A stretch of DNA of 64,000 bases from a virus (Duplodnaviria; Caudoviricetes): positions 32,001 through 96,000 of the IMG/VR virus record IMGVR_UViG_3300032265_002598; one strand, given 5' to 3'. The notes beneath the pieces were generated by a model. It was not told the origin of the DNA. It worked only from the letters and a program-made list of their open reading frames with translations, and made no database searches. How positions within the stretch are numbered: the stretch's first letter is position 1; the number at the start of each line of letters is the position of its first letter. Below, piece after piece: positions 42,625-64,000 of this stretch. A program made the position numbers and the translations under genes.

Positions 42625-45066
42625 ATGGCTACTTTATTTTTTGAAGGCTTTGACAAAGGAGTAGTTTTTAATGAACTAGATCCTAAGTACTGGTCTACTC
42701 AATTCAAATATTTTCCCAAATACTCTTTTGGTGGATATGCTCCAACTACTATAGAAGATCAAGCTATGGATGGAATATTTGGAAACAATATAGGTGCAGA
42801 TAAATTGGCTTTCATATATAAATATTCTACTCCAGTATCTATCAATGGTTTGGTTCCTAGCGGAAGATATACCGACAATAGAGCTGTTTTAGATGGCCAA
42901 TATGGTAGCACAGCTTATACTAAAAATTCTTATCCTGGTTTTGGAAGTCCACCAGGATTTTTAGCATTTACTAATATAGAACTAGAAAATAGTACTAGTG
43001 TAGAATATCCAACATACTTACAGACTAGTGGATTTCCAGTTTCAACAGGAAACATATCATATCTGTCAATGAGATGTCTTGGTTTGGAATCAAAACACAC
43101 AGACTACTCTTCATATCCTTATCGACACACGCTATTCAGTTTTAATAGCGGAGATTTTCCTTCTTTAACTGTTAACATTGTTAAAATAACTGGAAATAAT
43201 TTATTATCCATTAATAATAAGAAAGAAACATTAGCAATAGAGATACAACAGAATGATCAAACTCTTGGTTATTTTGACCTTAATCTTTCTGGAATAATTA
43301 GTCGATACCAGATAAGTTCTATTTTTAATTCAAGCAATAATAAAATACTAACTATTACAGATACTAATAGAGGAGATGGATTTAGTGCTATGATTAGTAG
43401 ATGGTGTCATTTAGAATTTTCAGTAGATAAATCCACAAGTCCTCCTTTGTTATATATTAATGTCGAAGATATTAATTTACCAGTAGTAAATACAGGAATA
43501 GCTAAAGAACTATGGGATACTAGTCTACCAATCAGTGGTTTTAATTTTAATAACTTGCGTTTTTATAATAGAACATACTCTAGCTCTATAATGAATGGAG
43601 TTACTGCGTCTATCCAAGGACAAGATATATGGAAAGATTCATGGTATTACATGAATGGAAGAGTATGGTTGTTAGACGACCTGGCTCTGGTAGATAACAC
43701 AGATCCCCCTCCTTCATATTGGTTGGGGAGTACTGCTAAAGTGATGTCAATATATCCTGGCGTTAGTGGTAGCTTAGTAGATAATTATGGTTTTTCTGAT
43801 GGATTATTAAAATGGTTTAAAGATCCAAATGTTCGTTCTATATCAAGGACTGTTACTGATGATTCTACATATGTACAAACATATTCTGATTATAGTAGTC
43901 ATCGACGAGCTTTTTTAATTCCAGATGCTGATGGAAATAATATAGAAACTATAGATAGCGGTAATATTGATGCTATTATAATGACCAAACCAAACTATCT
44001 TTTAAATACCCTGTACAATTCTTTCGACACTGAATCAATTTGGAGAGGTAATTTTAATGATGCTATTGGAGGAATGAAAGTTTATAATAGTGCTAGAAAA
44101 AAATATCTTGATACAAAATTTATTAATGTATTATATTCAGGACAAAGCGATATTTATGAACCAAACATTTCTTTGCTTTTGCATGGAGATTCTAGTCCTA
44201 TCATAGATAATGCCACAATTCCAAAAACTCTTAATATTTATGGACAAACTAATTCTACAGCTTCAATTAGTAAAATGGGTACTCGTAGTATTAGTTTTCC
44301 AAATAAGAATTCTTACATATATTTAAATCATCCAGACCTATCATCTTCTCCTTTTACAATAGAGTCATGGGTTTATTTTCCAAATAACACAACATCTGTT
44401 TCTTTATTTGATAAAGTTTCTTTACCAGCATTAGATACTATTGTTGTTGATCCTCAAGATTTTAATTCTAAATTTTATTCTTTTAGTGCTAATATTAGTG
44501 GAATCCAGTATATATCTGATTATGCGAATAATTATAACCCACATAAAGTTATTAGACAATTAATTTTTCCAAGTAATGCATCCACTGGAGTTTGGCATCA
44601 TGTTGCTATTACTAGAAATTCTAGCAATAATATAGTATGCTATCTTGATGGTCAGTCAGGAAATTCGTATAAATTATCAACCAGTGGAAACTTTTTTGGT
44701 GGATCTGATTATGAAACAACAGGAACATTTAATACTATTTATACTATTCCGAATGCTGTATCTGATATATCATCTTATTTTATTTCCTATAACAGCACTA
44801 AACCATATCTTAGTATTGGTAAAGATGGATATATAGATGAATATAGAATAACTTCGGGCATTAATCGTTATCCAACTAATTTTAATGTTCCAACTTTACC
44901 ATTTAAAACTAAAGCAGATGACTATGTAGAGATTGGTCCTGCTCATAATGTTACTAAAACTAGCTATAAAACATATCAATATTATGTTAATCAAAATCCG
45001 ATCACACAACAAAACTGGATATTACCAGATGTTACTGGTTTAGTTTTTGGAGTCAAAAAACTATGA
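42625..45066 (+). CDS. LamG/concanavalin-A-like virion protein
   Basis: PFTIESWVY...WHHVAITR..CYLDG...GYIDEYRIT...RYPTNF. Confidence 0.8.
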   Translation: MATLFFEGFDKGVVFNELDPKYWSTQFKYFPKYSFGGYAPTTIEDQAMDGIFGNNIGADKLAFIYKYSTPVSINGLVPSGRYTDNRAVLDGQYGSTAYTKNSYPGFGSPPGFLAFTNIELENSTSVEYPTYLQTSGFPVSTGNISYLSMRCLGLESKHTDYSSYPYRHTLFSFNSGDFPSLTVNIVKITGNNLLSINNKKETLAIEIQQNDQTLGYFDLNLSGIISRYQISSIFNSSNNKILTITDTNRGDGFSAMISRWCHLEFSVDKSTSPPLLYINVEDINLPVVNTGIAKELWDTSLPISGFNFNNLRFYNRTYSSSIMNGVTASIQGQDIWKDSWYYMNGRVWLLDDLALVDNTDPPPSYWLGSTAKVMSIYPGVSGSLVDNYGFSDGLLKWFKDPNVRSISRTVTDDSTYVQTYSDYSSHRRAFLIPDADGNNIETIDSGNIDAIIMTKPNYLLNTLYNSFDTESIWRGNFNDAIGGMKVYNSARKKYLDTKFINVLYSGQSDIYEPNISLLLHGDSSPIIDNATIPKTLNIYGQTNSTASISKMGTRSISFPNKNSYIYLNHPDLSSSPFTIESWVYFPNNTTSVSLFDKVSLPALDTIVVDPQDFNSKFYSFSANISGIQYISDYANNYNPHKVIRQLIFPSNASTGVWHHVAITRNSSNNIVCYLDGQSGNSYKLSTSGNFFGGSDYETTGTFNTIYTIPNAVSDISSYFISYNSTKPYLSIGKDGYIDEYRITSGINRYPTNFNVPTLPFKTKADDYVEIGPAHNVTKTSYKTYQYYVNQNPITQQNWILPDVTGLVFGVKKL

Positions 45067-45995
45067 GTGAATACAAAAGAATAAGATTACGAAGAGCACA
45101 AAGCGGAGAATGGTTTTCAGCTAATCCAACTCTTGGTCTAGGAGAACCAGGATATGAAACCAATTCACAAAGATTAAAAATAGGAGATGGAATATCTGCA
45201 TGGTCTGGCTTAGACTATATAAAAGTTCATCCATCTTCTATATCATATCCTAATATTTTATTTTCTATTTATGATGGATCTGAACCTAGAATAAATCTGA
45301 ATCTATCTAGTGGAGACTATTTGAATGTTATAGGTTCCGGTGACACAGAAGTGAAATATAATGCTTTTAGTAACACAATGACTATTAATACTCAAGCAGG
45401 ATCTTCATTTCTTACTGCTGCTAATATAGCAGATAGATTAGGCTATGTGCCACAAAGATCTGGTCAGTATAGCTTATTGGGTCATACTCATATTATTTCA
45501 GAAATCAATGGATTATCTGGAATATTAGATAGCAAACAGCCTAGTGGCAATTATGCTTCTAGTGGACATATTCATACTTTCTCTATAGGAGATGGGACTG
45601 CCAGTAGAATTAATTATAATTCTAATGAGAGGCTAGATATTATTGGTGATGGATATACGAATATAAATTATAATAATGCTAACAATAGTATTACTATCAG
45701 TTCAATTGGTAATAGTGGAGTAGTATCTTTTAATAACAGAACAGGAGTGGTAAATCTTTCTTTTCCTGATGTAACAGGAGCATTAAATTATACCCCTCAA
45801 CCAGTTGGTAATTATGCTCTTTCTGGCCATCATCATCCAGTATCCGATATTACAGGATGGAATCAATTTCCATTTAGAACCCCACCAGCTTCTTTATCAC
45901 AAGGAATAGCAGGAGAAATTTGTTGGGATTCATCTTATCTATATATTTGTATAGCTAGTAATCTATGGCATAGAATACCTCACTATGGCTGGTAA
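45063..45995 (+). CDS. Mtd-N fibre protein with HxH boxes
   Basis: RIRLRRAQ..EW..NPTLGLGEPGYETN..KIGDG; C-terminal GEICWDSSYLYICIASNLW. Confidence 0.82.
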   Translation: MSEYKRIRLRRAQSGEWFSANPTLGLGEPGYETNSQRLKIGDGISAWSGLDYIKVHPSSISYPNILFSIYDGSEPRINLNLSSGDYLNVIGSGDTEVKYNAFSNTMTINTQAGSSFLTAANIADRLGYVPQRSGQYSLLGHTHIISEINGLSGILDSKQPSGNYASSGHIHTFSIGDGTASRINYNSNERLDIIGDGYTNINYNNANNSITISSIGNSGVVSFNNRTGVVNLSFPDVTGALNYTPQPVGNYALSGHHHPVSDITGWNQFPFRTPPASLSQGIAGEICWDSSYLYICIASNLWHRIPHYGW

Positions 45996-50515: not shown

Positions 50516-50830
50516 ATGTACGATCCAGATAGACTTAAATTTTATATGGAAAGAAGAATTCAAACAACAATGATTGGAGCATTAGCTCGTATTGAAGAAA
50601 ACCTTGGATTTTTATGGGGACAACATAAAGATGGTGAGCTTACAAAAGAAGAAGAAGAATTTGCTGACATTTGGGATTTTACCAGAAATCAAATTTTGAA
50701 TAATGGTAATAATCAAATTAGACAAATTAAAGAAGACTTTTATAGATATGGTGGTATATTTAAATCAAGATATCACTATAATTTCCCAGTAACAAAAAAT
50801 CAAGATAATCAAAACTCTCAGGAAGGATAA
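50516..50830 (+). CDS. Hypothetical protein
   Basis: 104 aa ORF in the tail operon. Confidence 0.75.
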   Translation: MYDPDRLKFYMERRIQTTMIGALARIEENLGFLWGQHKDGELTKEEEEFADIWDFTRNQILNNGNNQIRQIKEDFYRYGGIFKSRYHYNFPVTKNQDNQNSQEG

Positions 50831-50833
50831 ATA

Positions 50834-51727
50834 ATGAAAACTGAAAATTTTAGTGTTGTAGTTGATGGTGTCGAAAAGCATTTTACTGTTAGATCACCTT
50901 CTTTAAATGATCAAAGAGAAGGACAGAAAGCATACAATCAAGCTTTTACAGACGCTATCAAGTCTAAATCTGTTGTTAGGGCCAAGATGGACGATCTCCT
51001 TGAAGAACAAGGTTTGTGGAATCCGGAAAAGCAAAGAAAATTTGCCGATTTGCAACAAGAATTAATAGACGGAGAAAAGAAACTTGCCAAAGGTGGTTTC
51101 GGTCTTAAAGATGCTAAAGGACTGGCTTTAAGAATGAAAGAAATTAGATCAGAAATTAGAGATCTAATTAGTGTTCGTACCTCTTTAGATAACCATAGTG
51201 CAGAAGGTCAAGCTGATAATGCTAGATTTAATTATTTAGTCTCGGCTTGTGTGGTGTATAAAGATACAAATGATCCCTATTTTCGCAGTTTAGAAGAGTA
51301 CTTAAATAAGGCCGACGATCCTGTTGCCTTGATGGGTGCTCAGAAATTGGCCAGTATGATTTATGGTTTAGATAATAATTTTGAAAAGAATTTACCTGAA
51401 AATAAATTCCTTCAAAAGTATAAATTTGTTGATGAGAAACTAAGACTGGTAGACAAGAGAGGTCGGTTGGTAGATGCTGATGGTCGATTAATTGACGAAC
51501 AAGGTCGATTTATTGATGAGGAAGGCAACTACATTGATAAGAATGGTAATAGAGTCGACAGAGATGGTGATTATGTTGTCGATGCTGAACCATTTTTAGA
51601 TGAAGAAGGAAAACCTGTAGTTTTAGAACAAGACACCAAACCCGAAGTGACTAAAGATGAGACAACTACAACTACAGTATCAGAACCAGTCCCAGCAGAA
51701 ACCCCAGTACCCCCTGCAACTACTTGA
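50834..51727 (+). CDS. Putative tail assembly chaperone with 7-aa DxxG repeats
   Basis: VDKRGRL VDADGRL IDEQGRF IDEEGNY IDKNGNR VDRDGDY. Confidence 0.55.
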   Translation: MKTENFSVVVDGVEKHFTVRSPSLNDQREGQKAYNQAFTDAIKSKSVVRAKMDDLLEEQGLWNPEKQRKFADLQQELIDGEKKLAKGGFGLKDAKGLALRMKEIRSEIRDLISVRTSLDNHSAEGQADNARFNYLVSACVVYKDTNDPYFRSLEEYLNKADDPVALMGAQKLASMIYGLDNNFEKNLPENKFLQKYKFVDEKLRLVDKRGRLVDADGRLIDEQGRFIDEEGNYIDKNGNRVDRDGDYVVDAEPFLDEEGKPVVLEQDTKPEVTKDETTTTTVSEPVPAETPVPPATT

Positions 51728-51808: not shown

Positions 51809-54800
51809 ATGGCTAAAGGATTTAATTTAACAGCACAAATTAATTTACAGGGACCATCTAATATTAATGTTATTGTATCTAACATTAAAAAACAATTAGG
51901 CACCATTTCAGCTAATGTTAATTTAAAGATAGACCCAGCATCGGCTAAAACAGTTGCCAGCTTAAATTCTTCTTTAAATCAACTTAACTTAACCCTTAAA
52001 GCGACGGCATCTTCTGCAACAAATGCTGCTGATGCAGTTAGGGATTTACTATCAGCTATGAATGGTGTTGCATCTGTAAAGTTGCCCAGTCAAGCAGCAC
52101 AAGTATCTTCATCTCTTAATAATGTAGCAGCTTCTTCTGCTAGCGCCCAAAAAGCACTATCTGCTTCAAGAACAGAGATAGAAGAATTTGGTAATCAAGC
52201 TGGTTTGGCAGTAAGAAGATTTGCTGCATTCAGCACTGTAACATCAGTAATATATGGATTAACAGGAGCAATTAGAGGTGGAATATCCGATTTTATTGAT
52301 TTTGATAAACAATTAACTAGAATCGCTCAGGTTACTGGTGAAAGTAAAGACGGATTAGGTAGACTAAAAGGAACCATAACAGAATTATCTACAGGTCTTG
52401 GTGTTACAGCTAAAGACTTAGCTGGCGTATCAGTTACACTATCTCAGGCTGGTCTTACCGCTAGAGATACTGAAAAAGCATTAAGAGCATTGGCTCTTAG
52501 CGCCCTAACAGCATCATTTGATGATATGAATCAGACGGTAGAAGGTTCTATTGCTTTGATGAGACAGTTCAAGATCGGATCTAATGAATTAGAAGCGGCT
52601 CTAGGATCTATCAATGCTGTATCAGCAAAGTTTGCAGTAGAATCTAGTGATATTATTGCTGCTATTCAGCGTACTGGTGGTGTGTTTGCCGCAGCTAGTA
52701 GAGGAGTTAGTGAAGGTAAAGATGCTCTCAATGAATTTATTGCTGTCTTTACTAGCGTTAGAGCAACAACCAGAGAAAGTGCTGAAACAATTGCTACTGG
52801 TTTAAGAACTATCTTTACCAGACTCCAAAGAGGAGACACTATTGAGGCCCTTAAAGAATATGGTGTTAATCTTACAGATTTAGATGGCAAATTCGTTGGT
52901 GCTTATAAAGCTGTTCAGTTATTAGCTGAAGGTTTAGGACAGATCGACCCTAGAGACCTTAAATTCTCCAAGATTGTTGAAGAGCTTGGTGGTTTTAGAC
53001 AGATTGGTAAGGTTATTCCATTAATCCAAGAGTTCACAACGGCACAACAAGCACTACAAGTTGCTCAAGCTGGACAAGGCTCATTAGCTTCTGATGCTGC
53101 TAAAGGACAATTAGCATTAGCAGTACAAATTAGTAAAACAAAACAAGAATTTTTATCTTTGATTCGTAGTATTGGAGATACTGATAGTTTTCAAAAAATG
53201 GTTACTGTTGGTCTTAGTTTAGCTAGTGCTTTAATTAAGGTAGCCGACGCTGCTAAAGGCATTATCCCATTAATAGGATTATTTGCCGCATTCAAGGGTG
53301 CTTCAGCTATACGACAGTTTAGTGCTGGATTTGGAACTGGCTTTGGTGGAGGAGCAGCTAAACAAAATAATAGACCATTAGGTTTTGCTACCGGTGGTTT
53401 AGTTCCCGGACAAGGTAATTCTGATAGTGTATCAGCAAGACTAACTCCTGGTGAGTTTGTTGTGAGAAAAAGTGCTGTTAAAGCTATTGGCTCAAATAAT
53501 CTACATAGAATGAATAGATATACAACTGGTGGAATTGTTAATCAAATAGGTGGTGTTCCAGGAAAAACAATAGTTCAAAATAGCAAAAATCAATTAGTAG
53601 GATTTAGTCCAAAAGACACCTATTCTATATCAGATGGTTCTGAAAATCTTATTATTAAATATGATAGTAAAAAACAAAATTATAGAGCTAGAGGTAAAAT
53701 ACTTGATCCTTCTTTAGTTAATCGTCTTTTTAAAAACAATTTTCAATCTACTGTGTCTTGGGAAGAAATTGTTGCCAAAAGCTATAATGGTAGATTAGTA
53801 AATGGAAAAAATGATAAATTCCCAATAGATATTATTGCTGGAAATACTTTAATAGATGCTAAATTTAGGCCAGAAGAATCATATAAGCCTATGGATGCTT
53901 TAGGAAAAGCATTAAGTTATCGTCTATATAAAGCATCGGGAGGTAGATACAACTATGAAAATAATGGACAACAAAAACTTAAACTTAATAGTTTAGTTAG
54001 AAATACTCTTACAGAAAATCAAGATAATATTAAAGATTCTGGTCAGATAAAATTTGTTTATCCAGAATTTCAAGATATTCCCACAGACTTACCCGGAATT
54101 AAGTCTAATGTAACAAAACGACAAGCTCAATTATCTAGCAAAAGAACAAGTTCAATGCAGAGGGGGTATGCTCAAAGTTCAATTGACATATTCGGTGGAT
54201 CTACTTTCAGTGGAAATAAAACAGATATTAATACTTTAAGCCCCTACGATAAAAAAAGTAGATTGTTTGGAGGAGGATCAGTTCGTAAATTTGAAAATGC
54301 GGGCTTAGTTACTCCAACAGCAGGAACAGCAGCTAATGCTAGTGAAATATTAAAAGTACTTACTTTGCCAGGAGCAATGGCAGCTAGTGGAGCAAGTGCT
54401 GGGGATATACTGAAAATACTAAAGAAAAAAAATGTACTTACTCCAAAAGAACAAGATATCAAAAATAAAATTTTAGGAGCATATACTAAAAAAACTTCTG
54501 GTATTAGATTAGCAGAGAATGCAGATATACAGAAGGCAATTACCGAAGGTCTTTTATTTGGTGCTGCTGGATTTAAAGGTAGAGCTTTTCCTATCACACC
54601 AAGAATGGATATTCCAGGATTAAAGAATGCAGTTAAGGTTAGAATTACTAGTGGTGTTTTAGATTCAGAGATGTCTAAAAAACTATTAAAGAAAATGACA
54701 GTGGGACTTAATAGTGTCGCTAATAAAACTTCAAGAAATATCATGATTAAAGATATCTTGAAACAAACTGGTCCATTATATGCTGATTTTGATAGAACAT

Positions 54801-57800
54801 TAGCCTTCGGTGCTGATAAAATTTTAGGAGATCCAACAAAGCCAAAATATAGTGAATTCTCTGATAGAAGCAAAGTTGCTGGGGCTTTAAGAACAGCTAA
54901 TCTTAGCATTTTAGGTAAAGCTATTGCTAGTACAGTAAGAAAAACCCCAGAATTTGCTAATAACCTAAATGTAATTTCTGCTAGACCACAATCAACAATG
55001 GATTTAATAGCCGGATGGTTAGCTAGCAAGGGCATTCCAATTCCATTAAATAGAATAAAGGGTGTTGGTGGGCCACAAGTTACTCCAGAACAGATTGCTA
55101 GTTTAAAGGCTGACTTGATGAATCCAGAGGGGGCCTTTGTTGACGATGATCCTAGAAATATTGCAGAATCAGAAAGAAGAGGAATCCGATCATATCTATA
55201 TAAAAAACAAAATGTTGGACCAACAGGAAGAAAAAAGCTTGGAGAAGCAAATGCTAAGGGTTATTTAGCCGAAAGAGTAATTCATGAGCTGGGCGGTCCA
55301 ATAGCTAATAAAGCTGCGACTAACTATGGTATCGACTTCCCAGATGGTTTAAAAAGTGCCGCGAAATACTTTGGTATTCCATCAGATATTCCAACAGACG
55401 CTAAACTTACTTTAAATGGTCCTGCTGAACTGAAGAGCCAGATTGGCAATTATCTCAAGGTGAGAGGATATGCTGGTGGTGGTTCTGTTACAGCAGACTA
55501 TTATAGCTTAGAAAAAAGTAGTGGATTAAAAAGTTTTGAATTTGATAATGCTGTAAAGTTTGCTAAAACTATGAATTATAGCATGTCAGAATTTCAAACA
55601 TATCTAAAGAAACTGCAAGTAGAAAAACAGAATAAATCTGGTGTTAAGACAGATAAAGATGCTCTAAGAAAATCTTTAATATCTGGAACCCCAACTGCTA
55701 CATCTAGACAAATGTCATTAGCAGAATCACTAAAAGGTCCAGCAGATGCTGGCTATAGACCAATATTAACAGAAGCTCAAAGAGTTGCTGCTGCTCGTGC
55801 AGATGTGAGAAATGCAACAAGAGGATTTGCTTCTGGTGGACTTGTTCCCGGAGTTGGTAATCAGGATACTGTTCCTGCTAATCTCAATGTGGGTGACTTT
55901 GTTATTCGTAAAAAAGCAGTATCTACTATTGGTGCTAGTAATCTAAGTTCATTAAATAAAAGAGCTAGTGGCGGAGAAATAAGCAACACCGTCCCTGCAC
56001 TATTAACTCCTGGTGAGTTTGTTATAAATAGAAAAACTGCTAGTAGCATAGGAACAGCAACACTTAATAGATTAAACTATGCAGATAAGGCTTCTAAATT
56101 TAATAATGGTGGCCCAGTAGGAACTGTTCAAGAGTTTGCAATAGGTGGAGCTGTACAAAGACTATTCTTTGGTGGTCCAAGCTTACCAGCTAAACCCTCT
56201 AATCCTACAGAGGGTAATGTTCAAATTTCTACTACTGTTGGTGACCAGCTTAGAGGTATGGTAACCGCTTTAAATGACTTAGGAATATCTTCATCTAAAA
56301 CAGCAGAGATTATTAAAAAGGGTGGACAGATCAGTTATCAAGCTGCTATAAAAGCTTATTCTGCTGATATCCAAAAAATGAGATTAAATGGTGCATCTGC
56401 GATACAAGTTGCAGACGCAGAGAGAAAGCTTAGAGATATTAGAGCAGACGCAGCAAAGAATATCGAAACTAGAAAAAAACTCTCTGGAGTTGGTGCAGAT
56501 CAATTACAGAACATAGATACCTCAGCACAGTTTGAGAAAGAAAGATTAACAAATCAAAAGAGAAATAGTTTAAGAAAAAAAGGAATTACTGGAGAAGCAG
56601 CGGATAAAGTATTAGAAGGTAGTGCTGCTAATATTGAAAAAATAGCATATCAAAGTGCAGCAAAATCACAAGGTGTTGATCTTAAAGGTATGGGTCTAAA
56701 TGGTCAGGATATGCAAAAATATATCCAACGATCAATGATGGATGCAAAAACTTTACAGCAAATGAATGCTCAATATTTACAAACTAGAAAGAAAGATTTA
56801 GAAGCAGTAGGACATAGTGCAGCAGAAGCTCATAAAATAGCTCAAAAAGAAATCAAAGAAAGAGAAGCCATACTTAGAGATGTTGCCAAGTCTCGTGGAA
56901 TGGCAGATCCTACAGGGAAGGGATCGTCTGAAAAACTCAGCCAAAGAATGATGATGGCCGGTTTTATGCTTCCTATGATAGGTAGTGCAGCATCTAGTCT
57001 TATTAATCCTGAAAGTAGTGCAGCGAGTGCTGCAACATCTGCTGGTATTCAAGGAGTAACTAATACAGTTGGTATGGGATTAGGCACAATGAGTATGATA
57101 CCTCTTGAAAAACTAGGTAAATTTGGTGGAATACTAGGTATGGCAGCAGTTGCAGCAGCAGCTGTTGGTCAAGCTATGATAGATGCTCGTAATGCTACTA
57201 TAGAGTTTGAGAAAAAGATGGGTCAGAATAAAGCAGAAAAAGCTTTAGAAGAAGTAGGTAAAACTTTTGAAAAACTTGAAAAAGATATAAAGAATATAAA
57301 TCTTCAGAAAATTATTATAACTAAACTAGCAGAAGCTAGTACAAATATCAAAAGTAGTGTAGAAGCTGATGTTAAAAGAGCTAAAGCATATTGGACTAAT
57401 TTATTAGATGCTTATTTCGGTGGAGCAGGAACATCGCAAGGAAATAGGGAAGCAGCAGAAAGAAGTAAAATTTTAGAAAAAGGAGGAGTAGGTAAATATT
57501 TTCAAGCTACAGGTTTTGGTCAAGCTATGATGGGTAATGTTTCTGGTGCTGATGCAGCAGCTAGTGCGTCAAGATCTGCACAAATAAGAGGTTATGCTCC
57601 AGAAACAGCACAGCAAAATGCCAAAATATTTGCTGATACTGCTAGCCAAATTAATCGTCTTATAGAACAAAAATTTAAAGGCGGAGAAAGCTTAGAAAGT
57701 ATTTTAACAAGCATTACAGATGCTTCACAACCAGAATTTCAACAGTTTGCAGAAGTCTTAGCTAAATCTAATGCTGTTATAGGACAACAAATTTTGTATA

Positions 57801-60800
57801 TAGAGTCTGATATACATCTTAAAGCCGATCAGAAAAAAGCACAAATAGAAGCTATACAAGCTACCTACGCTGAAGCAGAGGCCAGAAGAATCTATGGTGT
57901 TGTTGCTAGACAAAAAGAAATAAAATCTTTAGAACAATCGACTGGCTTATTTAGTCGTAGTCTTGAAAGAATGTATCAGAATATGGAACAGTCCATAAAT
58001 AGGACTATCTTTACTTTAGACAAAATGAGTAAAGAATTAGACTTAGTAGTTTCTTCTTTTAAGGGTGAAGCTACAGTAGGCCAAGGCTCATTAGACAGTA
58101 TTAATATGCTACAGAATCCTCGTGCTTATTCTAAGAATGATAGAGAATCTGCTCGTGATCAAGCTTCTAGTTTCTTTTCTGGTAATAGAGATCTAGTTAA
58201 AGGATTATTAAATGCTGGGGATAATTTAGAACAAGTTATTATGACCACTTTAAGTAATACTTTTAGAGATAATCCAGCAGCTAACAACGAACAAATTGGT
58301 ATTGCTATAGAAAGAAATGTTAAAGATCAACTAGCTAATTTATCTTTACCATCTGATGTTGGAGATAAGCTTGCTGCTGAAGTTCAAAAGGCTTTGGGAG
58401 ATTTAAGAAAAGAAGATAATAGTAAAGTTGATTTTGCTCAGTTAGCAGAAAAAATACCTCAATTATCAAAAGTTATTGAGAGTGCAAAAAGAGCACAAGA
58501 AGTAGCAATAAAAGCATTAGAAAATTGGCAAAATGCATTAAATAACTACTCTACTAGAACTAATCAGCTTGTTGATTTGCAAGTAGACACTAATAATAGA
58601 CTGAGAAAGTCAACTCAAATTTTAGCTGATAGTCAAATAGATTTAGCAAAATCTCTTGGTCAAGAAATAGGAGTATCTGATACTAGAAGAGTAGCAGAAT
58701 CTAAAACAGGACAACTAACTGGTGGATTAATAAGTCCAAAAGATATAACTGATAATATCTTAAATCTTGAAGGAAATAGAAGAGCACAAGAAACTGGATC
58801 TAATATTGCTAGAAATAGAGGAGCTAGTGGAGTAGATGATTTTATGAATATGCAGAAGGGTCTAAAAGACACAAATACTGCATTAAGAGAAAACTATGAA
58901 GCTCTCAAAAACTTAGCAGATAATTCAGATGTAGCATCAGCTGCTTTAGGTAAAATTCAAGAAGCTCAACAAAAAAATCAGGGACGAGTTAGTTTTATCG
59001 AAAAATTAGTCACCAGTACACCAGATGAAATGGATGGTTTAGGTAAAGCACTCGGTAGACTACAAACTAATATGAATGGTCAAGTTAATACTATTCAACG
59101 ATCACAAGGAGCACAGCAGGCTTATTATGAAGCTTTACAAAATGGAGCTTCTGGCTTTGAGGCTATGAGAGCTGCTCAAACTGCATTTGCTAATGAGAGA
59201 AAAGAAACGCTAGGTGCTCTTAATGATATTATGCCTTTCTTAGGAAATAATAAACAAAGCAATAATATTAAAGCTAATGTATTAGAAGGTATGTTAAAAG
59301 AATCTGGTCAGGGTGTTTCTCCAATAATGCAACAGGTATTAACTACCCTCAGAAATCCACAAGCTGATCCAGAAACCCAAGCAGCTATGGCTCAGTATCA
59401 ACAGGCCACCAACTTACAATCAGAAGCTAATAGACAATTAGCTATGTTAAATACTAATTTAGCTGGTCAAATAGCAGACGCTTCTGCAAAAGCTTTGAAA
59501 GACGCATTAACTGGAACAGCACTAACTTTCCAAAATGCAGAATTAACAAATATTCGAGACGATGTGGCTATTATCAAGAATTTAATAGGAGCAGGAACGA
59601 CTACACCGACAACCAAAGCTTCTGGAGGTGTTATATATGCTGCTGCTGGTATGGGTATTGATTTTTCTCCAAAGGGTACTGATACTGTTCCAGCAATGTT
59701 GACCCCCGGAGAATTTGTGGTTAATAGAGCAGCTACCCAGAGAAATCTCCCACTATTACGTTCTATCAATAGTCAAAAACATAGTAGTGGTGGTCCTGTT
59801 AGATATTATGCTGGTGGTGGATATGTTAGTAGTATTATGAAGGATCAAACAGATCTTAGGGGAGAAGGACTTAAAGTAACAGATAAAAACTATTTAGATC
59901 CAGATAGTGAAGATTTTAAAAATCTAGTTAGTGATAAATCTCCAACAGTATTTAGTGGATGGAAAAACTATACTAGAAGTCAGGCATCTGGAGAAGGAAG
60001 AAAAGAAGGAGATAACATATATGCTCCTGCTCGTTGGTGGTATGGAATAGCTGGGATGGGTCCTGGAGAAATTGCTTTTAATAACAGAGGGGCTTTATTA
60101 GCGGGTGCTGCTCCAAAAATTGAAGTAACTCCTGATGGATATTTCCAATATACCGCTACTCAACCAACTACAGTAGATCCTATTAATCAAGTTCAACCTA
60201 TGGGTCTTTTGATGTCTAAGGGTGTTATAGGAACAAGACCTATTCGACAAGATCAAATAATAAAATATAAAGAGAAAATTTTAGCAATTAAAAGAAATAT
60301 GGGGGCTCAGGCTTGGGGAGATGACCCATCAGATTTTGATATAGGATCACTTGAAGATATCAATGGTGTGCAAGGGAAAAGTGGTGGGCCAGGTAAAGAG
60401 TACGATCCTAATATCAGTATTGGTAAAAATATTGGTATAATTATTTCTCCCAATAAAAATAGGCCAATAATTACTCCAGTATTTCCTTCTGAAGAAACTA
60501 CAGATATACAAAAAGTTTGGTTGGAAATGACTACAGCTGCTAGTCTTGTTCCAACAGGATATTATGGAACTATAGTTTCTCCACACGCAGTTGAGACAGG
60601 AGGGACGTTAAGAACAGACAACAGCGAAACAGTTCCGGGTGCTAATAATAGTAACGCTGGTCAAGATATTAGAGATAAGGGATTAAAAATTGATTTACTT
60701 AGTACCCCAAGAACTAGCGTTGTTCCAAACGCAGCTATGGCTACAGTAGAAGCTAATTGGGTTAGAGCAAAAGCAGATATTGATGCTAAAATTAATTCTC

Positions 60801-63800
60801 AGAGAATAAATACAACATTTTATAAGGATACTTTAGCTTCTGTTGAAGCTGATAATTTTAAATTTGTAAGAACAAAGGTTAACAATAGACTAGATCAATT
60901 ACAAAAACAACTACAAAATCTATACGAAAACCGTAGTTTGGTAGAAGATATTGGCCCATCTAAAGAGTTTCTTGATTTAGAGCCTTTAAATGCTCCAGAT
61001 CCTATTGTAGATTTGCATGTTTTATCAGCTACTAAAAATAATGAATTACGACAAAAAATAAAAGAACTTCAAGCTATTTCTCCTACTATTCGTGAAGATA
61101 AAGGTTGGAGAGGATTAAATGTTGGTACTATAGGAGCAGCATTTGGTGAAAAATGGATGGACGGTAATGCTATAGATATTCAAGATGAAATGGCAGCTGG
61201 ACCCTTAAAAGAATTTCCTTGGATTGCTAATCTTGATCCAACCATTCTTTTAGCTAATTTAGCTGCTGATATAAGAAGGAAACAAGAAGACTTAGCTAGT
61301 GGTAAAGAGTATGGATTTAATGTTAGTCAAATTACTCATTCTGTTAATGAAAAATTACCAGCACCACTAGATCAATATTCTCTAAAGCATACCGAACAAT
61401 ATTTAAAATATACTGGTCCTCTTTGGAATCCTGATGATCCTAATGCTGATCCTTCTGGTTTCTTGACAGACAATCCTCTTAAAGATTACTTTGTTGTTAA
61501 ACCCTCTCCAGCTAAAGAAGACATGTTTCAATATGCCGGAGAGGCATTTAAAAATCAAAGAAATTTTGCTAGTAAGAATAAACCATTTGATCTTTCTGAT
61601 TTAATCTCTAAATTACAGCCAGCACAAACTCAAACTATAGCAGATTATATTAAGAATCCTACTGACCCACAATTAACCACTGATCTTAAGAATATTGCTG
61701 TTGGAGTTAATCCTAGTTTAATAACAGCTAAAACTGTCGGTGTTAGTAAACCAATTGGATTAGAAGGTTTTGATTTATTTTCTCAAGAAGATAATACTCC
61801 AATTAATCTTAATATTGGTAGTTATTTAACTCATGCAATTGAAGAGTTAGCACAAGAACAAAAAAGAAAAGCTTTAGGAGTAACTGGAGAAATAGATAAT
61901 GCTAAGGGGCTTAGTATTGGTATTGCAGATACTGATAAACAAAAGGCTTCTGTTAATCTAACTCGTGGAGCATTAAATGTTTTTGGTAGATCAAAGATTC
62001 CGGGATTTGCTAATGGATGGTTAGCCAGATATATTGGTAGAATGCCAAGCATATTAGGTATGGCTAAAAATAATAATATTGTAAAATCTGGTACTTCATA
62101 TATAGCCAATGTTTTCAATGAGGCTGGTGCTTATGCTAGTAAATTATTTCAAATGGCTCGTAATCCTCAACAATATAATGCTCTCAAAGAAGCATATGTG
62201 ATGATCTCTGGGGCTACCAGCGCTTTTAATGGATTATCCAATGGAGATACAAGGTTCTTAAAACTACTACAAGACCAAGGAGACTATTCAGCTCTATTTA
62301 GATCTTTAGGAGCAAGTTCTAGTTTCCAAAAAGCAGCAAATAATGAACTAACAGCAGACTATCAAGCTCAATTGGGTCAGGAACTTAAGGGATCAAAGAT
62401 TAGAAAAGTCGGTGCTGATGGTTCACTAAGTTACGCTGATTTCAATAATTCTGTACCAAAAACTTATCAAGACTTAGTAGATACAGCACTTAATCCATAT
62501 AATGAATTTACTAGTCCTTCTATTCGTAAGGGATTGATTAATACATTAATTGCTGATATTTCTAATGGTAAAGATAGTTTAGGAATGCCATTCTTTGATA
62601 AAAGAACTTTGGACTATATTAATAATAATCTTAGAACTCTACAGTCTTGGTACGGTGGTGATGGTAATGCATGGCCCGGACAAGACTCTTTTTATGACGA
62701 AACTTTAGATGCTAAGATCAGAACTGATAGTGTTATAAATGCTCTAAATAATAATGCTGCTGGTGGATTATTAGATCAGGCTAATTTAGCTAATACACAA
62801 TTGGGTGTTGCTACTAAATTTGGTAACTTGCCAAGTGCTCAATGGTTTGAGGCCAGAAAGATTGCACAACCTCAATTTAGAGCTACTGGCGGCATGATCT
62901 ATGCTTCTGAAGGCCAGATGATTAATTTTCAGCCCCGTGGCACAGATACCGTTCCAGCAATGTTAACTCCCGGCGAATTTGTTGTCAATAGACAAGCCAC
63001 CCAAAAGAACCTCCCATTGCTACAATCTATTAATAATGGTAATCATTATTCTAAGGGTGGTCCTGTTAATTATCTATCAGATGGTGGAGAAGCTGCCCCA
63101 TTTAATGCTATAACTGGCAATAGAGTCAAAGAAAAACCAGAAGATAAAGATTCTCCACTAACTAAATATAAAATCAGCTCAGTACTTTATCCCTATGTTA
63201 GTTATCCATTTGATGAGAGAGGATATTCTCAGGATTTACCTCCAGAACTAAAAATGCTTAATACTTTAGGGGGTTATGGCGGTGGAATAGGATATACAAA
63301 TATTTTCTTTGATACTGATTTAGCTAAAAGTTTGCGGTCTATCAGAAGTAATAAAAATAATCAGTATGCAACTAGTACAGCAGTAAATAACAGTTCTGCT
63401 GAGTTTATTAAACAGTTTAAATTTAGAGATATTGATAATAATGATAAATTAACTGGCTTTGATTTTTCTAGCTTTTTATCTGATAGTGATAATATTTTAG
63501 GTTTAATAGATCCAGATTTAGGTGATGGATTTGCTCCTAAAAATCTAATAGCATGGAAAAAAGCAGAAGATAGAGTCAAGGCCAGATCATCTGCTAAGGC
63601 TGTTATTGCTAATTTAACACCAGACTTAGAAAATATTAAAGCTGTTATACAAGATCAACATCCAGTAGATGGTTCAAATAATACTAATGATCGTAATTCT
63701 TATGGGGCTCAAGGTCAAGCTGCAATAGCAATGAGGATGTTGATTTACAATGTAATAGAAACATGGAAAAAAGATTCTATAGAAAGTATAGAGGGTCTTG

Positions 63801-64000
63801 GATCAGATAATGCTCAAGTCAATTCTCAACAAGTAGCAGAAGATATCTATAAAGGTAATAAAACGCCTTTGACGAAAAAATTAGTAGATTGGTTAGATAA
63901 AAAAGAAGGAGCTAAAACTTTAGTTGAAAAAGCTAAAGAATTATTTCCTGGTAGATCCCCTGATGATGCTCCAAATGACAAATTTTTAGCATCAGATTTT
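51809..64000 (+). CDS. Giant tape measure protein (TP901-type core) with embedded cargo domains; 3'-truncated, >=4064 aa
   Basis: ATG 51809 (MAKGFNLTAQINLQGP). No in-frame stop seen in the ~7 kb translated by hand, and the ORF track lists no closed ORF in this frame. TP901-like FDKQLTRIAQVTG..ELSTGLGV..LSQAG; hydrophobic stretches ~53190-53340 and ~56940-57180. Confidence 0.9.
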   Translation, partial: MAKGFNLTAQINLQGPSNINVIVSNIKKQLGTISANVNLKIDPASAKTVASLNSSLNQLNLTLKATASSATNAADAVRDLLSAMNGVASVKLPSQAAQVSSSLNNVAASSASAQKALSASRTEIEEFGNQAGLAVRRFAAFSTVTSVIYGLTGAIRGGISDFIDFDKQLTRIAQVTGESKDGLGRLKGTITELSTGLGVTAKDLAGVSVTLSQAGLTARDTEKALRALALSALTASFDDMNQTVEGSIALMRQFKIGSNELEAALGSINAVSAKFAVESSDIIAAIQRTGGVFAAASRGVSEGKDALNEFIAVFTSVRATTRESAETIATGLRTIFTRLQRGDTIEALKEYGVNLTDLDGKFVGAYKAVQLLAEGLGQIDPRDLKFSKIVEELGGFRQIGKVIPLIQEFTTAQQALQVAQAGQGSLASDAAKGQLALAVQISKTKQEFLSLIRSIGDTDSFQKMVTVGLSLASALIKVADAAKGIIPLIGLFAAFKGASAIRQFSAGFGTGFGGGAAKQNNRPLGFATGGLVPGQGNSDSVSARLTPGEFVVRKSAVKAIGSNNLHRMNRYTTGGIVNQIGGVPGKTIVQNSKNQLVGFSPKDTYSISDGSENLIIKYDSKKQNYRARGKILDPSLVNRLFKNNFQSTVSWEEIVAKSYNGRLVNGKNDKFPIDIIAGNTLIDAKFRPEESYKPMDALGKALSYRLYKASGGRYNYENNGQQKLKLNSLVRNTLTENQDNIKDSGQIKFVYPEFQDIPTDLPGIKSNVTKRQAQLSSKRTSSMQRGYAQSSIDIFGGSTFSGNKTDINTLSPYDKKSRLFGGGSVRKFENAGLVTPTAGTAANASEILKVLTLPGAMAASGASAGDILKILKKKNVLTPKEQDIKNKILGAYTKKTSGIRLAENADIQKAITEGLLFGAAGFKGRAFPITPRMDIPGLKNAVKVRITSGVLDSEMSKKLLKKMTVGLNSVANKTSRNIMIKDILKQTGPLYADFDRTLAFGADKILGDPTKPKYSEFSDRSKVAGALRTANLSILGKAIASTVRKTPEFANNLNVISARPQSTMDLIAGWLASKGIPIPLNRIKGVGGPQVTPEQIASLKADLMNPEGAFVDDDPRNIAESERRGIRSYLYKKQNVGPTGRKKLGEANAKGYLAERVIHELGGPIANKAATNYGIDFPDGLKSAAKYFGIPSDIPTDAKLTLNGPAELKSQIGNYLKVRGYAGGGSVTADYYSLEKSSGLKSFEFDNAVKFAKTMNYSMSEFQTYLKKLQVEKQNKSGVKTDKDALRKSLISGTPTATSRQMSLAESLKGPADAGYRPILTEAQRVAAARADVRNATRGFASGGLVPGVGNQDTVPANLNVGDFVIRKKAVSTIGASNLSSLNKRASGGEISNTVPALLTPGEFVINRKTASSIGTATLNRLNYADKASKFNNGGPVGTVQEFAIGGAVQRLFFGGPSLPAKPSNPTEGNVQISTTVGDQLRGMVTALNDLGISSSKTAEIIKKGGQISYQAAIKAYSADIQKMRLNGASAIQVADAERKLRDIRADAAKNIETRKKLSGVGADQLQNIDTSAQFEKERLTNQKRNSLRKKGITGEAADKVLEGSAANIEKIAYQSAAKSQGVDLKGMGLNGQDMQKYIQRSMMDAKTLQQMNAQYLQTRKKDLEAVGHSAAEAHKIAQKEIKEREAILRDVAKSRGMADPTGKGSSEKLSQRMMMAGFMLPMIGSAASSLINPESSAASAATSAGIQGVTNTVGMGLGTMSMIPLEKLGKFGGILGMAAVAAAAVGQAMIDARNATIEFEKKMGQNKAEKALEEVGKTFEKLEKDIKNINLQKIIITKLAEASTNIKSSVEADVKRAKAYWTNLLDAYFGGAGTSQGNREAAERSKILEKGGVGKYFQATGFGQAMMGNVSGADAAASASRSAQIRGYAPETAQQNAKIFADTASQINRLIEQKFKGGESLESILTSITDASQPEFQQFAEVLAKSNAVIGQQILYIESDIHLKADQKKAQIEAIQATYAEAEARRIYGVVARQKEIKSLEQSTGLFSRSLERMYQNMEQSINRTIFTLDKMSKELDLVVSSFKGEATVGQGSLDSINMLQNPRAYSKNDRESARDQASSFFSGNRDLVKGLLNAGDNLEQVIMTTLSNTFRDNPAANNEQIGIAIERNVKDQLANLSLPSDVGDKLAAEVQKALGDLRKEDNSKVDFAQLAEKIPQLSKVIESAKRAQEVAIKALENWQNALNNYSTRTNQLVDLQVDTNNRLRKSTQILADSQIDLAKSLGQEIGVSDTRRVAESKTGQLTGGLISPKDITDNILNLEGNRRAQETGSNIARNRGASGVDDFMNMQKGLKDTNTALRENYEALKNLADNSDVASAALGKIQEAQQKNQGRVSFIEKLVTSTPDEMDGLGKALGRLQTNMNGQVNTIQRSQGAQQAYYEALQNGASGFEAMRAAQTAFANERKETLGALNDIMPFLGNNKQSNNIKANVLEGMLKESGQGVSPIMQQVLTTLRNPQADPETQAAMAQYQQATNLQSEANRQLAMLNTNLAGQIADASAKALKDALTGTALTFQNAELTNIRDDVAIIKNLIGAGTTTPTTKASGGVIYAAAGMGIDFSPKGTDTVPAMLTPGEFVVNRAATQRNLPLLRSINSQKHSSGGPVRYYAGGGYVSSIMKDQTDLRGEGLKVTDKNYLDPDSEDFKNLVSDKSPTVFSGWKNYTRSQASGEGRKEGDNIYAPARWWYGIAGMGPGEIAFNNRGALLAGAAPKIEVTPDGYFQYTATQPTTVDPINQVQPMGLLMSKGVIGTRPIRQDQIIKYKEKILAIKRNMGAQAWGDDPSDFDIGSLEDINGVQGKSGGPGKEYDPNISIGKNIGIIISPNKNRPIITPVFPSEETTDIQKVWLEMTTAASLVPTGYYGTIVSPHAVETGGTLRTDNSETVPGANNSNAGQDIRDKGLKIDLLSTPRTSVVPNAAMATVEANWVRAKADIDAKINSQRINTTFYKDTLASVEADNFKFVRTKVNNRLDQLQKQLQNLYENRSLVEDIGPSKEFLDLEPLNAPDPIVDLHVLSATKNNELRQKIKELQAISPTIREDKGWRGLNVGTIGAAFGEKWMDGNAIDIQDEMAAGPLKEFPWIANLDPTILLANLAADIRRKQEDLASGKEYGFNVSQITHSVNEKLPAPLDQYSLKHTEQYLKYTGPLWNPDDPNADPSGFLTDNPLKDYFVVKPSPAKEDMFQYAGEAFKNQRNFASKNKPFDLSDLISKLQPAQTQTIADYIKNPTDPQLTTDLKNIAVGVNPSLITAKTVGVSKPIGLEGFDLFSQEDNTPINLNIGSYLTHAIEELAQEQKRKALGVTGEIDNAKGLSIGIADTDKQKASVNLTRGALNVFGRSKIPGFANGWLARYIGRMPSILGMAKNNNIVKSGTSYIANVFNEAGAYASKLFQMARNPQQYNALKEAYVMISGATSAFNGLSNGDTRFLKLLQDQGDYSALFRSLGASSSFQKAANNELTADYQAQLGQELKGSKIRKVGADGSLSYADFNNSVPKTYQDLVDTALNPYNEFTSPSIRKGLINTLIADISNGKDSLGMPFFDKRTLDYINNNLRTLQSWYGGDGNAWPGQDSFYDETLDAKIRTDSVINALNNNAAGGLLDQANLANTQLGVATKFGNLPSAQWFEARKIAQPQFRATGGMIYASEGQMINFQPRGTDTVPAMLTPGEFVVNRQATQKNLPLLQSINNGNHYSKGGPVNYLSDGGEAAPFNAITGNRVKEKPEDKDSPLTKYKISSVLYPYVSYPFDERGYSQDLPPELKMLNTLGGYGGGIGYTNIFFDTDLAKSLRSIRSNKNNQYATSTAVNNSSAEFIKQFKFRDIDNNDKLTGFDFSSFLSDSDNILGLIDPDLGDGFAPKNLIAWKKAEDRVKARSSAKAVIANLTPDLENIKAVIQDQHPVDGSNNTNDRNSYGAQGQAAIAMRMLIYNVIETWKKDSIESIEGLGSDNAQVNSQQVAEDIYKGNKTPLTKKLVDWLDKKEGAKTLVEKAKELFPGRSPDDAPNDKFLASDF

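What the first reader, a model, noticed from the sequence alone, without database searches (positions are those of the whole stretch)
53384..63090. Five copies of the GG...VPAxLTPGEFVxxxxA...L..N...GG module punctuate the tape measure
Seen: copies at ~53384-53533, 55826-55975, 55982-56110, 59618-59820 and 62879-63085. Copies 4 and 5 are also visibly similar as DNA, differing mostly at synonymous positions. From recall, a single similar motif (xATGG...GEFV...YATGG) lies near the processed C-terminus of lambda gpH. Inference: the multiplied motif is a processing or tail-tip docking signal, and its conserved DNA may let cargo cassettes be exchanged by recombination.
Basis: partly seen in the sequence, partly recalled or inferred. 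Interest (0 to 1): 0.7.

Follow-up and report, generated by a model that had tools for sequence, protein, structure and literature searches.

The report
Repeated junction module in giant tape measure
The tail "ruler" protein of an uncultured 201-kb freshwater phage is 5,679 residues long and is divided into a fixed backbone plus swappable inserts by nine copies of a short, very conserved protein module; the same module occurs once in phage lambda's ruler, next to where that protein is cut, and its job is still unknown.

Summary
The five copies are real and lie at the stated coordinates. The ORF runs 4.8 kb past the window end: it is 5,679 aa and has nine copies, found nowhere else in the genome.

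The module has about 60 residues: (aromatic/K/R)-A-x-GG, a DTVPAMLTPGEFVV core, a short helix, then GG. Mycobacteriophage Douge's TMP has two copies. No Pfam or NCBIfam model covers it.

In 121 giant relatives (3.3-7.9 kaa, 3-11 modules each) the modules separate a conserved backbone (F1, F0, F2, F3) from variable cassette slots. Homology breakpoints fall at modules 3-4 times more often than at random, for protein and for DNA.

The module DNA is not specially conserved. Copies share at most 20 identical bases, and conservation is at the protein level.

Function is inferred. I read the module as a conserved junction that serves one common partner. It may also mark post-assembly cuts, because lambda and T5 are cut just upstream of a module or a module-like stretch. 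No processing evidence exists for this phage.

The scan has reported the same architecture on other genomes. I found no paper describing it.

The parts
51809..64000 (+). Tape measure gene. The open frame continues beyond the window to window coordinate 68848 (genome 100848); it is 5,679 aa in all (P0002 = L001:1-17037).
   Evidence: PF10145 E 9e-23 at aa 189-382. TIGR01760 E 1e-25. PHROG tape-measure families.
51809..53383 (+). F1: N-terminal TP901-type tape-measure core (aa 1-525). It ends in a hydrophobic stretch (aa 464-493, window 53198-53287) and a Gly-rich run.
   Evidence: Present in 119 of 121 relatives, with mean identity 63%.
53384..53554 (+). Module 1 (aa 526-582), short type. It resembles the lambda gpH module most closely.
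53555..55825 (+). Variable slot A. Here it holds cassette family F4 (aa 583-1339), which has invariant DxDxT...K...DDD (HAD-like) and E...D...DxK (PD-(D/E)XK-like) motifs.
   Evidence: These are motifs only: there is no Pfam or PDB sequence hit.
55826..56134 (+). Modules 2 and 3 (aa 1340-1394 and 1391-1442), a tandem pair that shares one GG edge.
   Evidence: The AF2 model of the pair shows, for each module, a beta-hairpin plus two short helices, with pLDDT 75-83 in the cores.
56135..59632 (+). F0: universal backbone segment of about 1,170 aa (aa 1443-2608). It holds the second hydrophobic region (aa 1714-1793, window 56948-57187).
   Evidence: Present in 120 of 121 relatives.
59633..59818 (+). 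Module 4 (aa 2609-2670), long type.
59819..62896 (+). F2: nearly universal backbone segment of about 1,000 aa (aa 2671-3696), of unknown fold.
   Evidence: Present in 108 of 121 relatives.
62897..63085 (+). Module 5 (aa 3697-3759), long type.
63086..64000 (+). Start of variable slot B. Cassette F20 comes first and carries an EF-hand pair beyond the window. It is followed by module 6, F28, module 7, F14, module 8, F6, module 9 and the C-terminal domain F3, all outside the window.

Best explanation
The repeat is a protein-level junction module of tape measure proteins. It has a GG-flanked edge strand, a beta-hairpin (DTVPAMLTPGEFVV), two short helices (NRxATQxNLPLLxxIN) and a second GG edge. Lambda gpH has one copy. 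This 5,679-aa tape measure has nine, one at every boundary between segments.

Shown here:
- The copies are old paralogues kept by purifying selection on the amino acids.
- They are the most conserved part of the protein.
- They delimit a fixed backbone (F1, F0, F2, F3) and two slots of variable cassettes.
- Exchange junctions between related phages concentrate in them.

Inferred:
- Every copy serves the same partner during tail assembly. Candidates are neighbouring tape-measure chains, the tail assembly chaperone or the tube lumen. The module would act as a registration or anchoring node on either side of segments that are not simple helical ruler.
- Because all junctions are alike, a crossover between any two modules gives an in-frame, functional protein. 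Cassettes can therefore be gained, lost and swapped.
- A cut just upstream of some modules after assembly, as in lambda and T5, is possible but is not needed for this reading.
For: - Nine copies lie in this ORF only, with E 7e-14 to 1e-29.
- The module is homologous to lambda gpH 733-788 and to two internal copies in Douge gp16. It occurs in tape measures of Gordonia, Mycobacterium, Brevundimonas, Nodularia and Ralstonia phages and in a gp29-like protein of a T4-like cyanophage.
- 18,287 cluster representatives match at E<=1e-3, and 1,028 at E<=1e-30, a score that takes several copies.
- The twelve-residue core is 82-100% conserved over 614 modules.
- Long modules are 65-73% identical between proteins whose flanking F0 and F2 are 36% and 30% identical.
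- Identical core peptides are encoded with scattered synonymous differences.
- The architecture F1-M-[slot A]-M(M)-F0-M-F2-M-[1-6 cassettes, each bounded by M]-M-F3 is shared by 121 relatives. The same cassette families appear at different ordinal positions.
- Breakpoints are enriched at modules, for protein and for DNA.
- Copy number rises with length (Spearman 0.76, 240 proteins).
- All modules lie in one ORF in 64 IMG/VR loci; the gene is never split.
- AF2 gives no confident fold for a lone module (pLDDT 60). For a tandem pair it gives a hairpin plus two helices at pLDDT 75-83, which fits an element stabilised by a partner.
- In Douge, the 1,699-aa TMP with two internal modules matches a 270-nm tube at 0.16 nm per residue. 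Modules can therefore sit inside a working ruler (PMC13033339).
Against:
- The module region is unresolved in every solved tail (lambda, Douge). If it formed a rigid node, some density might have been expected.
- Spacing between modules is very irregular (0 to about 2,400 aa), which is unlike a periodic anchoring device.
- The enrichment of breakpoints could arise simply because modules mark domain boundaries where chimeras remain viable.
- The endpoints counted are not independent events.
Confidence: 0.5

Rival explanations
1. The modules are processing sites. After the tail is assembled, the giant protein is cut just upstream of each module, between position -3 and the [AS]-x-GG edge. This would turn it into a train of separate proteins (ruler pieces and enzyme cargo) that leave the tail ahead of the DNA.
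For: - Lambda gpH is cut in the Gly-rich stretch just before its single module, so the module lies within the N-terminal part of gpHC. Neither the site nor the protease is known (PMC12617516).
- T5 pb2 is cut after R1127. The next residues, AEGGMMY...GTE.V...VP...TP, line up with the N-terminal edge of the long module here, with Smith-Waterman z of 4.2-5.4 against M4-M6 (PMC10038345).
- In 626 long modules, position -3 from GG is K or R in 50% against a 12% background, and position -2 is A or S in 73%.
- Module 1 follows a hydrophobic and then a Gly-rich stretch, as in lambda and T5.
- The cassettes carry enzyme-like motifs and an EF-hand pair, which would work best once released.
Against: - The T5 likeness is weak: hmmsearch finds nothing, hhalign gives probability 2.4%, and z is only 2.1-2.8 against M7-M9.
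- Position -3 is a large hydrophobic residue in 42% of modules, so there is no uniform cleavage signature.
- No catalytic-looking residue is shared with lambda beyond GEFV.
- Searches of the genome for a JAB domain and for an NlpC/P60 peptidase domain found neither.
- There are no proteomic data for any member.
Confidence: 0.3
2. The module acts after ejection. Each copy would bind or insert into the host envelope (peptidoglycan, membrane or a periplasmic partner). This would help the extruded tape measure build the trans-envelope conduit and place its cargo.
For: - Tape measures are ejected and form the periplasmic channel in lambda (PMC12617516).
- Modules 1 and 2-3 flank regions that lie close to the two hydrophobic stretches.
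- The module occurs in phages of hosts with very different envelopes, as a generic element would.
Against: - The same breadth of hosts (Actinobacteria, Proteobacteria, Cyanobacteria, probably Bacteroidota) argues against any specific host ligand.
- The module is neither hydrophobic nor amphipathic.
- It has no similarity to known cell-wall-binding folds; Foldseek gives no match below E 0.7 and the best VIA Z is 2.2.
Confidence: 0.1
3. The copies are passive linkers or scars left by unequal recombination. Only one copy would be functional, as in lambda, and the others would merely be tolerated.
For: Breakpoints cluster at modules. Modules often occur as tandem pairs, which look like recombination by-products (118 pairs).
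Against: - All positions are under strong purifying selection. Internal copies are 65-73% identical across proteins whose flanks are 30-36% identical.
- Synonymous sites are scrambled while the peptide stays invariant.
- There is no concerted evolution or gene conversion that could otherwise explain the similarity.
Confidence: 0.05

Closest known systems
Phage lambda tape measure gpH, matured to gpH* plus gpHC (PMC12617516; Hendrix and Casjens 1974, and Tsui and Hendrix 1983, as cited there)
   Same: It has the same module (gpH 733-788: aromatic-A-T-GG edge, GEFV core, helix with IG..NL, Y-A-T-GG edge). The order is also the same: hydrophobic stretch, Gly-rich run, module, C-terminal docking domain. 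The F3 end of this protein resembles the lambda docking end.
   Different: Lambda has one copy in 853 aa and no inserted cassettes. Here nine copies bracket about 4,500 aa of extra segments. The role of the lambda module is itself unknown, and the region is unresolved in all lambda tail structures.
Phage T5 tape measure pb2, cut after R1127 into pb2* and pb2C (PMC10038345)
   Same: An experimentally mapped cut separates an enzyme-bearing C-terminal piece from the ruler. The residues after the cut resemble the N-terminal edge of the long module.
   Different: The similarity is weak: there is no HMM hit and hhalign probability is 2.4%. T5 has a single site and no repeated module.
Mycobacteriophage tape measures with embedded motifs (TM4, PMC1796659) and Douge gp16 (PDB 8ZDO, PMC13033339)
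   Same: These are tape measures that carry extra functional motifs inside the ruler. Douge gp16 has two internal copies of this module, at 974-1028 and 1412-1458, and its full length matches the 270-nm tail.
   Different: They have one or two copies and small inserts in 1.2-1.7 kaa proteins. The modules were not noted in the Douge paper's passages on the tape measure that I read. There is no backbone-plus-slots architecture.
Giant tape measure gp96 of Thermus phages P23-45 and P74-26 (5,002 aa; NC_009803)
   Same: It is of comparable size and belongs to a siphophage. A review sentence in PMC13033339 gives siphophage tails of up to 875 nm.
   Different: gp96 has no copy of the module (best domain E 0.42), so it is an independent route to a giant tape measure.
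Nodularia phages vB_NpeS-2AV2 and kac65 (tail 795 nm, PMC6293099 Table 1; kac65v162 TMP 3,312 aa)
   Same: These are cultured siphophages. kac65v162 has a giant tape measure with two copies of the module core (aa 915-948 and 984-1017). For 2AV2, tblastn found one match place. This shows that giant module-bearing tape measures can go with very long tails.
   Different: There are only two adjacent copies and no cassette array. The proteins are not close relatives of this one.
Polyvalent proteins of phages and conjugative elements (Iyer et al. 2017, cited in PMC7824862)
   Same: They are long multidomain proteins thought to be delivered into the host with the DNA, carrying exchangeable enzyme domains.
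   Different: As I recall that work, those proteins are not tape measures, are thought to be cut by their own peptidase domains, and lack this module.

Membership tests
Tail tape measure protein, TP901 type (PF10145 / TIGR01760) | Core domain matched above the curated cut-off | tested here: met
   PF10145 scores 81.6 bits against a cut-off of 33.2. TIGR01760 scores 90.2 bits against 28.8. PHROG 28, 4211, 167 and 1533 also match.
Tail tape measure protein, TP901 type (PF10145 / TIGR01760) | Hydrophobic segments within a long, largely helical protein, in a tail gene cluster | tested here: met
   There are two hydrophobic regions, aa 464-493 and 1714-1793. Tail-fibre-like ORFs lie upstream and very large ORFs downstream. 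The neighbouring genes have no family hits, so the cluster context is only suggestive.
Tail tape measure protein, TP901 type (PF10145 / TIGR01760) | Protein length sets tail length | not testable with these tools
   The phage is uncultured and no virion images exist.
Lambda gpH-type junction module (uncatalogued; PHROG 35029 and 13338 'unknown function') | Layout: aromatic/K/R-A-x-GG edge, (P)GEFV hairpin, A-T/V..IG/NL..L..N helix, second GG edge | tested here: met
   All nine copies show it. Lambda matches at hmmsearch 1e-8 and hhalign 3e-5. Douge gp16 matches twice.
Lambda gpH-type junction module (uncatalogued; PHROG 35029 and 13338 'unknown function') | Proteolytic cut just upstream of the module during tail maturation | not testable with these tools
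   This is known only for lambda (site unmapped) and for T5 (module-like stretch only). No proteomics exist for this phage family.
Virus polyprotein cut into separate mature proteins | A protease for the cuts, encoded by the virus or known from the host | tested here: inconclusive
   Searches for PF14464 (Prok-JAB) and PF00877 (NlpC/P60) found nothing in the genome. Other peptidase families were not searched. The lambda protease is itself unknown.
Virus polyprotein cut into separate mature proteins | A uniform cleavage-site signature at every junction | tested here: inconclusive
   Position -3 is K/R in 50% and F/L/Y/M in 42% of 626 long modules. Position -2 is A/S in 73%.
Virus polyprotein cut into separate mature proteins | Separate mature products in the virion or the cell | not testable with these tools
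   This needs mass spectrometry.
Ubiquitin-like beta-grasp with a C-terminal GG, cut by a JAB peptidase (as proposed for lambda gpI and gpK) | Beta-grasp fold of the module and a JAB peptidase in the genome | tested here: not met
   The AF2 models show a hairpin plus two helices, not a beta-grasp. The search found no JAB domain. The Atg8 hits of the core were not significant (E about 1-2).
Thermus phage P23-45 gp96-type giant tape measure | Shared sequence or shared module | tested here: not met
   There is no module in gp96.

The most novel reading that the evidence does not exclude
Every module marks an assembly-triggered cut. The 5,679-aa protein would then be a programmable delivery train: a ruler plus up to eight separately released proteins (phosphatase-like, nuclease-like, calcium-binding and others) injected ahead of the DNA, with new cars added by module-to-module recombination. 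The same module would then be the long-sought determinant of the lambda gpH to gpH* cut.
Probability: 0.2. Interest if true: 0.85.

Novelty: new variant of a known kind. Interest (0 to 1): 0.6.

Why it matters
Tape measure proteins are known to set tail length, to be cut in lambda and T5, and sometimes to carry a lytic motif. A large family of them (more than 1,000 cluster representatives at 50% identity) built as a fixed backbone plus exchangeable cassettes, joined by one conserved module, is not described in the papers I could search. The module has no Pfam or NCBIfam model.

The module lies in the part of lambda gpH that no structure resolves, next to a cut whose site and protease have been unknown for fifty years. 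The nine-fold repeat and its invariant residues give a precise target for mutagenesis and mass spectrometry in lambda, Douge or the Nodularia phages.

If the cassettes are delivered into the host, this would be a general route by which phages inject ready-made enzymes. The module would then be a natural splice point for engineering such cargo.

Tried and rejected
- Conserved DNA as the driver of exchange: rejected. The longest exact match between copies is 20 nt. Codon identity at conserved residues is 0.47 in M1 against 0.53 in F1.
- Concerted evolution or gene conversion among copies: rejected. Identity between positions within one protein equals identity between positions across proteins.
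- Gene fission at modules: none. In 64 IMG/VR loci all modules lie in one ORF. The short hit P0196 starts 64 bases from the end of its contig and is a fragment. P0173 is a complete 1,618-aa ORF that says nothing about fission.
- Ubiquitin-like module plus JAB peptidase: rejected.
- An autonomous fold for a single module: AF2 gives pLDDT 59.8, with only the helix confident.
- Fold searches with the tandem model: Foldseek against the PDB gives no match below E 0.7, and the VIA wide search gives a best Z of 2.2. No analogue was found, which does not show that the fold is new.
- blastn of the gene against phage records found nothing.
- A viral-contig scan with aa 2150-2700 found nothing; the scan with aa 1-585 worked.
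- Atlas feature searches for F2 and F4 gave no usable hit.
- PDB profile searches for F4 and F2 gave nothing.
- Pfam found nothing on the cassettes except the EF-hand pair.
- A paper search for the motif together with 'tape measure' gave no result.


Full report
**What is there.** The finding lies in one open reading frame that starts at window 51809 and runs off the window end. The window is bases 32001-96000 of a complete 201,067-bp virus record with direct terminal repeats. In the whole genome the frame is 5,679 codons long and ends at window coordinate 68848.

Its first 525 residues are a standard TP901-type tape measure core. PF10145 matches at E 9e-23 and TIGR01760 at 1e-25, both above their curated cut-offs, and several PHROG tape-measure families match as well. 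Pfam and NCBIfam name nothing else in the protein except an EF-hand pair at about aa 4216-4263.

**The observation.** A pattern search and an HMM built from the copies find nine modules. Four more lie beyond the window, at aa 4851-4909, 5053-5110, 5267-5334 and 5517-5578. A six-frame search of the genome finds the module only in this ORF, with domain E-values from 7e-14 to 1e-29.

There are two subtypes. Copies 1-3 are short (GG-LVPG-GN-D-VPA-L-GEFV...A...IG...L...N...GG). Copies 4-9 are long (GG-h-IYA-G-I-F-P-GTDTVPAMLTPGEFVVNR-ATQ-NLPLL-IN...GG).

The DNA remark about copies 4 and 5 is only partly right. They are 67% identical. Of 73 base differences, 22 lie in codons that keep the residue and 51 in codons that change it. 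All differences are synonymous only in the 18-codon core.

**Relation to lambda and others.** A profile of the nine copies, searched against PDB chain sequences, hits only two tape measures:
- Mycobacteriophage Douge gp16, with two internal copies at 974-1028 and 1412-1458.
- Lambda gpH.

Read from the lambda genome, gpH 733-788 has the same layout as short-type copy 1, and the same context: a hydrophobic stretch, then a Gly-rich run, then the module.

According to PMC12617516, gpH is cut in the Gly-rich region into gpH* and a piece of about 14 kDa, gpHC. Residues about 690-817 are unresolved, residues 818-849 dock on gpI, and both the cut site and the protease are unknown. The module is therefore not the docking element. 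It lies in the unresolved N-terminal part of gpHC.

tblastn finds the module in annotated tape measures of Gordonia, Mycobacterium, Brevundimonas, Nodularia, Ralstonia, Rhizobium and other phages. In three cultured phages that I checked:
- A 2,340-aa Brevundimonas jumbo-phage TMP has one copy.
- A 3,312-aa Nodularia phage TMP has two.
- A 659-aa gp29-like protein of a T4-like cyanophage has one.

The exhaustive profile search gives 18,287 cluster representatives at E<=1e-3 and 1,028 at E<=1e-30, a score that takes several copies. No Pfam or NCBIfam model covers the module. PHROG 35029 and 13338, both 'unknown function', contain it.

**Architecture across relatives.** A word-indexed search returned 462 giant relatives of 3.3-7.9 kaa, and I analysed the best 120. 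The iterated HMM finds 781 modules in the 121 proteins, 3-11 per protein. In 240 proteins, copy number rises with length (Spearman 0.76). The first module starts at a median of residue 526, and the last ends a median of 146 residues before the C-terminus.

I cut the proteins at the modules and clustered the pieces. This gives a common plan:

F1 (core, about 525 aa) - M - [variable slot A] - M or MM - F0 (about 1,170 aa, in 120 of 121) - M - F2 (about 1,000 aa, in 108) - M - [one to six variable cassettes, each bounded by M] - M - F3 (C-terminal domain, 100-260 aa)

Among the 152 segment families, 89 are singletons. Families such as F6, F10, F14, F15 and F17 occur at different ordinal positions in different proteins.

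**Are modules exchange points?**
- The window's protein and P0004 are 90% identical through residue 577, the end of module 1. They are unrelated in slot A and align again from residue 1357, inside module 2. P0006 and P0008 break at residues 3760-3761, the end of module 5.
- Over all pairs, 43.5% of 3,267 distinct internal endpoints of long, at least 50% identical alignments lie within 25 residues of a module, against 12.8% for random positions.
- At the DNA level, in 64 IMG/VR loci plus this genome, 20.5% of 127 endpoints of stretches at least 85% identical lie inside modules, against 4.6% at random. They pile up at the module edges and at the start of the core. For example, an 11.7-kb stretch that is 86% identical between this genome and L006 ends 40 bases after the GEFV codons of module 1.

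The endpoints are not independent events, and any domain boundary would attract viable junctions. This shows where exchange succeeds, not why.

**Is the DNA itself conserved?** No.
- Copies in this gene share at most 20 identical bases. The identical 15-residue core is written with different synonymous codons in each copy.
- Across relatives, codon identity at residues at least 90% conserved is 0.47 in module 1 and 0.53 in F1.
- There is no concerted evolution. Modules at different positions of one protein are no more alike than modules at different positions of different proteins.

Conservation is thus purely at the protein level, and it is strong. Twelve consecutive core residues are 82-100% conserved in 614 modules. 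Long modules are 65-73% identical between proteins whose F0 and F2 are 36% and 30% identical. Every copy is therefore under selection, which excludes the 'scar' reading.

**Structure.**
- AF2 on one long module with flanks (67-sequence alignment) gives pLDDT 59.8, with only the helix moderately confident.
- A tandem pair (101-sequence alignment) gives pLDDT 75-83 for each core. Each core is a two-stranded hairpin followed by two short helices, and pTM is 0.53.
- Neither Foldseek against the PDB nor the VIA wide search finds an analogue.

A small element that is not confidently folded alone fits a motif stabilised by a partner, but this remains an inference.

**Processing.** In T5, pb2 is cut after R1127 (PMC10038345). 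Read from the T5 genome, the next residues begin A-E-GG-MM-Y and continue with GTE.V and VP...TP. This lines up with the N-terminal edge and the core of the long module.

The alignment scores are z 4.2-5.4 against copies 4-6 (at most 1 of 500 shuffles reaches them) and only 2.1-2.8 against copies 7-9. hmmsearch finds nothing, and hhalign gives probability 2.4%. This is a lead, not a match.

In 626 long modules the residue aligned with R1127 is K or R in 50% (background 12%) and a large hydrophobic residue in 42%. The next residue is A or S in 73%. The genome has no JAB or NlpC/P60 domain.

Two experimental systems thus place a maturation cut just upstream of a module or a module-like stretch. 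Nothing shows cuts here.

**Tail length.**
- Douge's 1,699-aa TMP, with two internal modules, matches a 269.6-nm tube.
- Nodularia phage 2AV2 has a 795-nm tail (PMC6293099). Its relative kac65v162 has a 3,312-aa TMP.
- The published 5,002-aa gp96 of Thermus phage P23-45 has no module.

Giant tape measures and very long tails are therefore known, and modules can sit inside a working ruler. Whether this family (2.3-7.9 kaa) has tails that vary accordingly is unknown.

**Verdict.** The module is an old, widespread, uncatalogued tape-measure element homologous to the one in lambda gpH.

My best reading, at about 0.5, is a conserved junction that serves one common partner during tail assembly. Because it is the same at every boundary, module-to-module recombination yields viable chimeras.

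The main rival, at about 0.3, is that each module marks a post-assembly cut that releases cargo. The two readings are not exclusive.

The scan has reported the same architecture on several other genomes. I reached the lambda and T5 links and the count of nine before reading those notes.

Noticed in passing
window 28832-41170 (+): A second giant ORF of 4,112 aa lies upstream of the tail genes. It has no Pfam hit in either half. Downstream of it are ORFs with tail-fibre or collagen-like PHROG hits (41186-42340 and 45063-45995).
   Followed up: partly
window 50516-50830 and 50834-51727 (+): Two ORFs just upstream of the tape measure, where tail assembly chaperone genes usually lie, are in the same frame and separated only by TAA plus one codon. 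No -1 frameshift arrangement is evident, and neither ORF has a family hit. I did not check for possible readthrough.
   Followed up: no
window 54785-55405 (aa 993-1199 of the tape measure): Cassette F4 keeps invariant DFDRT...K...DDD (HAD-like motifs I, III and IV) and E...D...DAK (PD-(D/E)XK-like) residues across 28 relatives that share only 21% mean identity. Pfam and PDB sequence searches find nothing. I did not fold it.
   Followed up: partly
L001:12646-12789 (aa 4216-4263, beyond the window): An EF-hand pair lies inside cassette F20 of the tape measure. It passes the Pfam cut-offs for PF13202 and PF00036 and recurs in several relatives.
   Followed up: partly
L073:5005-6984 (Synechococcus phage SynMITS9220M01 gene 011): A 659-aa 'hypothetical protein' lies beside the baseplate hub genes of a T4-like cyanophage, in the gp29 position. 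It carries one clear copy of the module (E 2e-19), so the module is not confined to siphophages.
   Followed up: partly
L072:6259-16197 (Nodularia phage vB_NspS-kac65v162 gp180): This cultured phage has a 3,312-aa tape measure with two module cores 69 residues apart. Its relative 2AV2 is listed with a 795-nm tail, which would be about 0.24 nm per residue if its TMP has the same length as the kac65v162 one. That is more than an all-helical ruler would give.
   Followed up: no
L002:3-4370 (first ORF downstream of the tape measure): This 1,455-aa ORF has a weak, sub-threshold match to the 'grass antifreeze beta roll' family (PF21300, 28.7 bits against a cut-off of 30). It is probably a beta-helical tail tip or fibre protein.
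   Followed up: no
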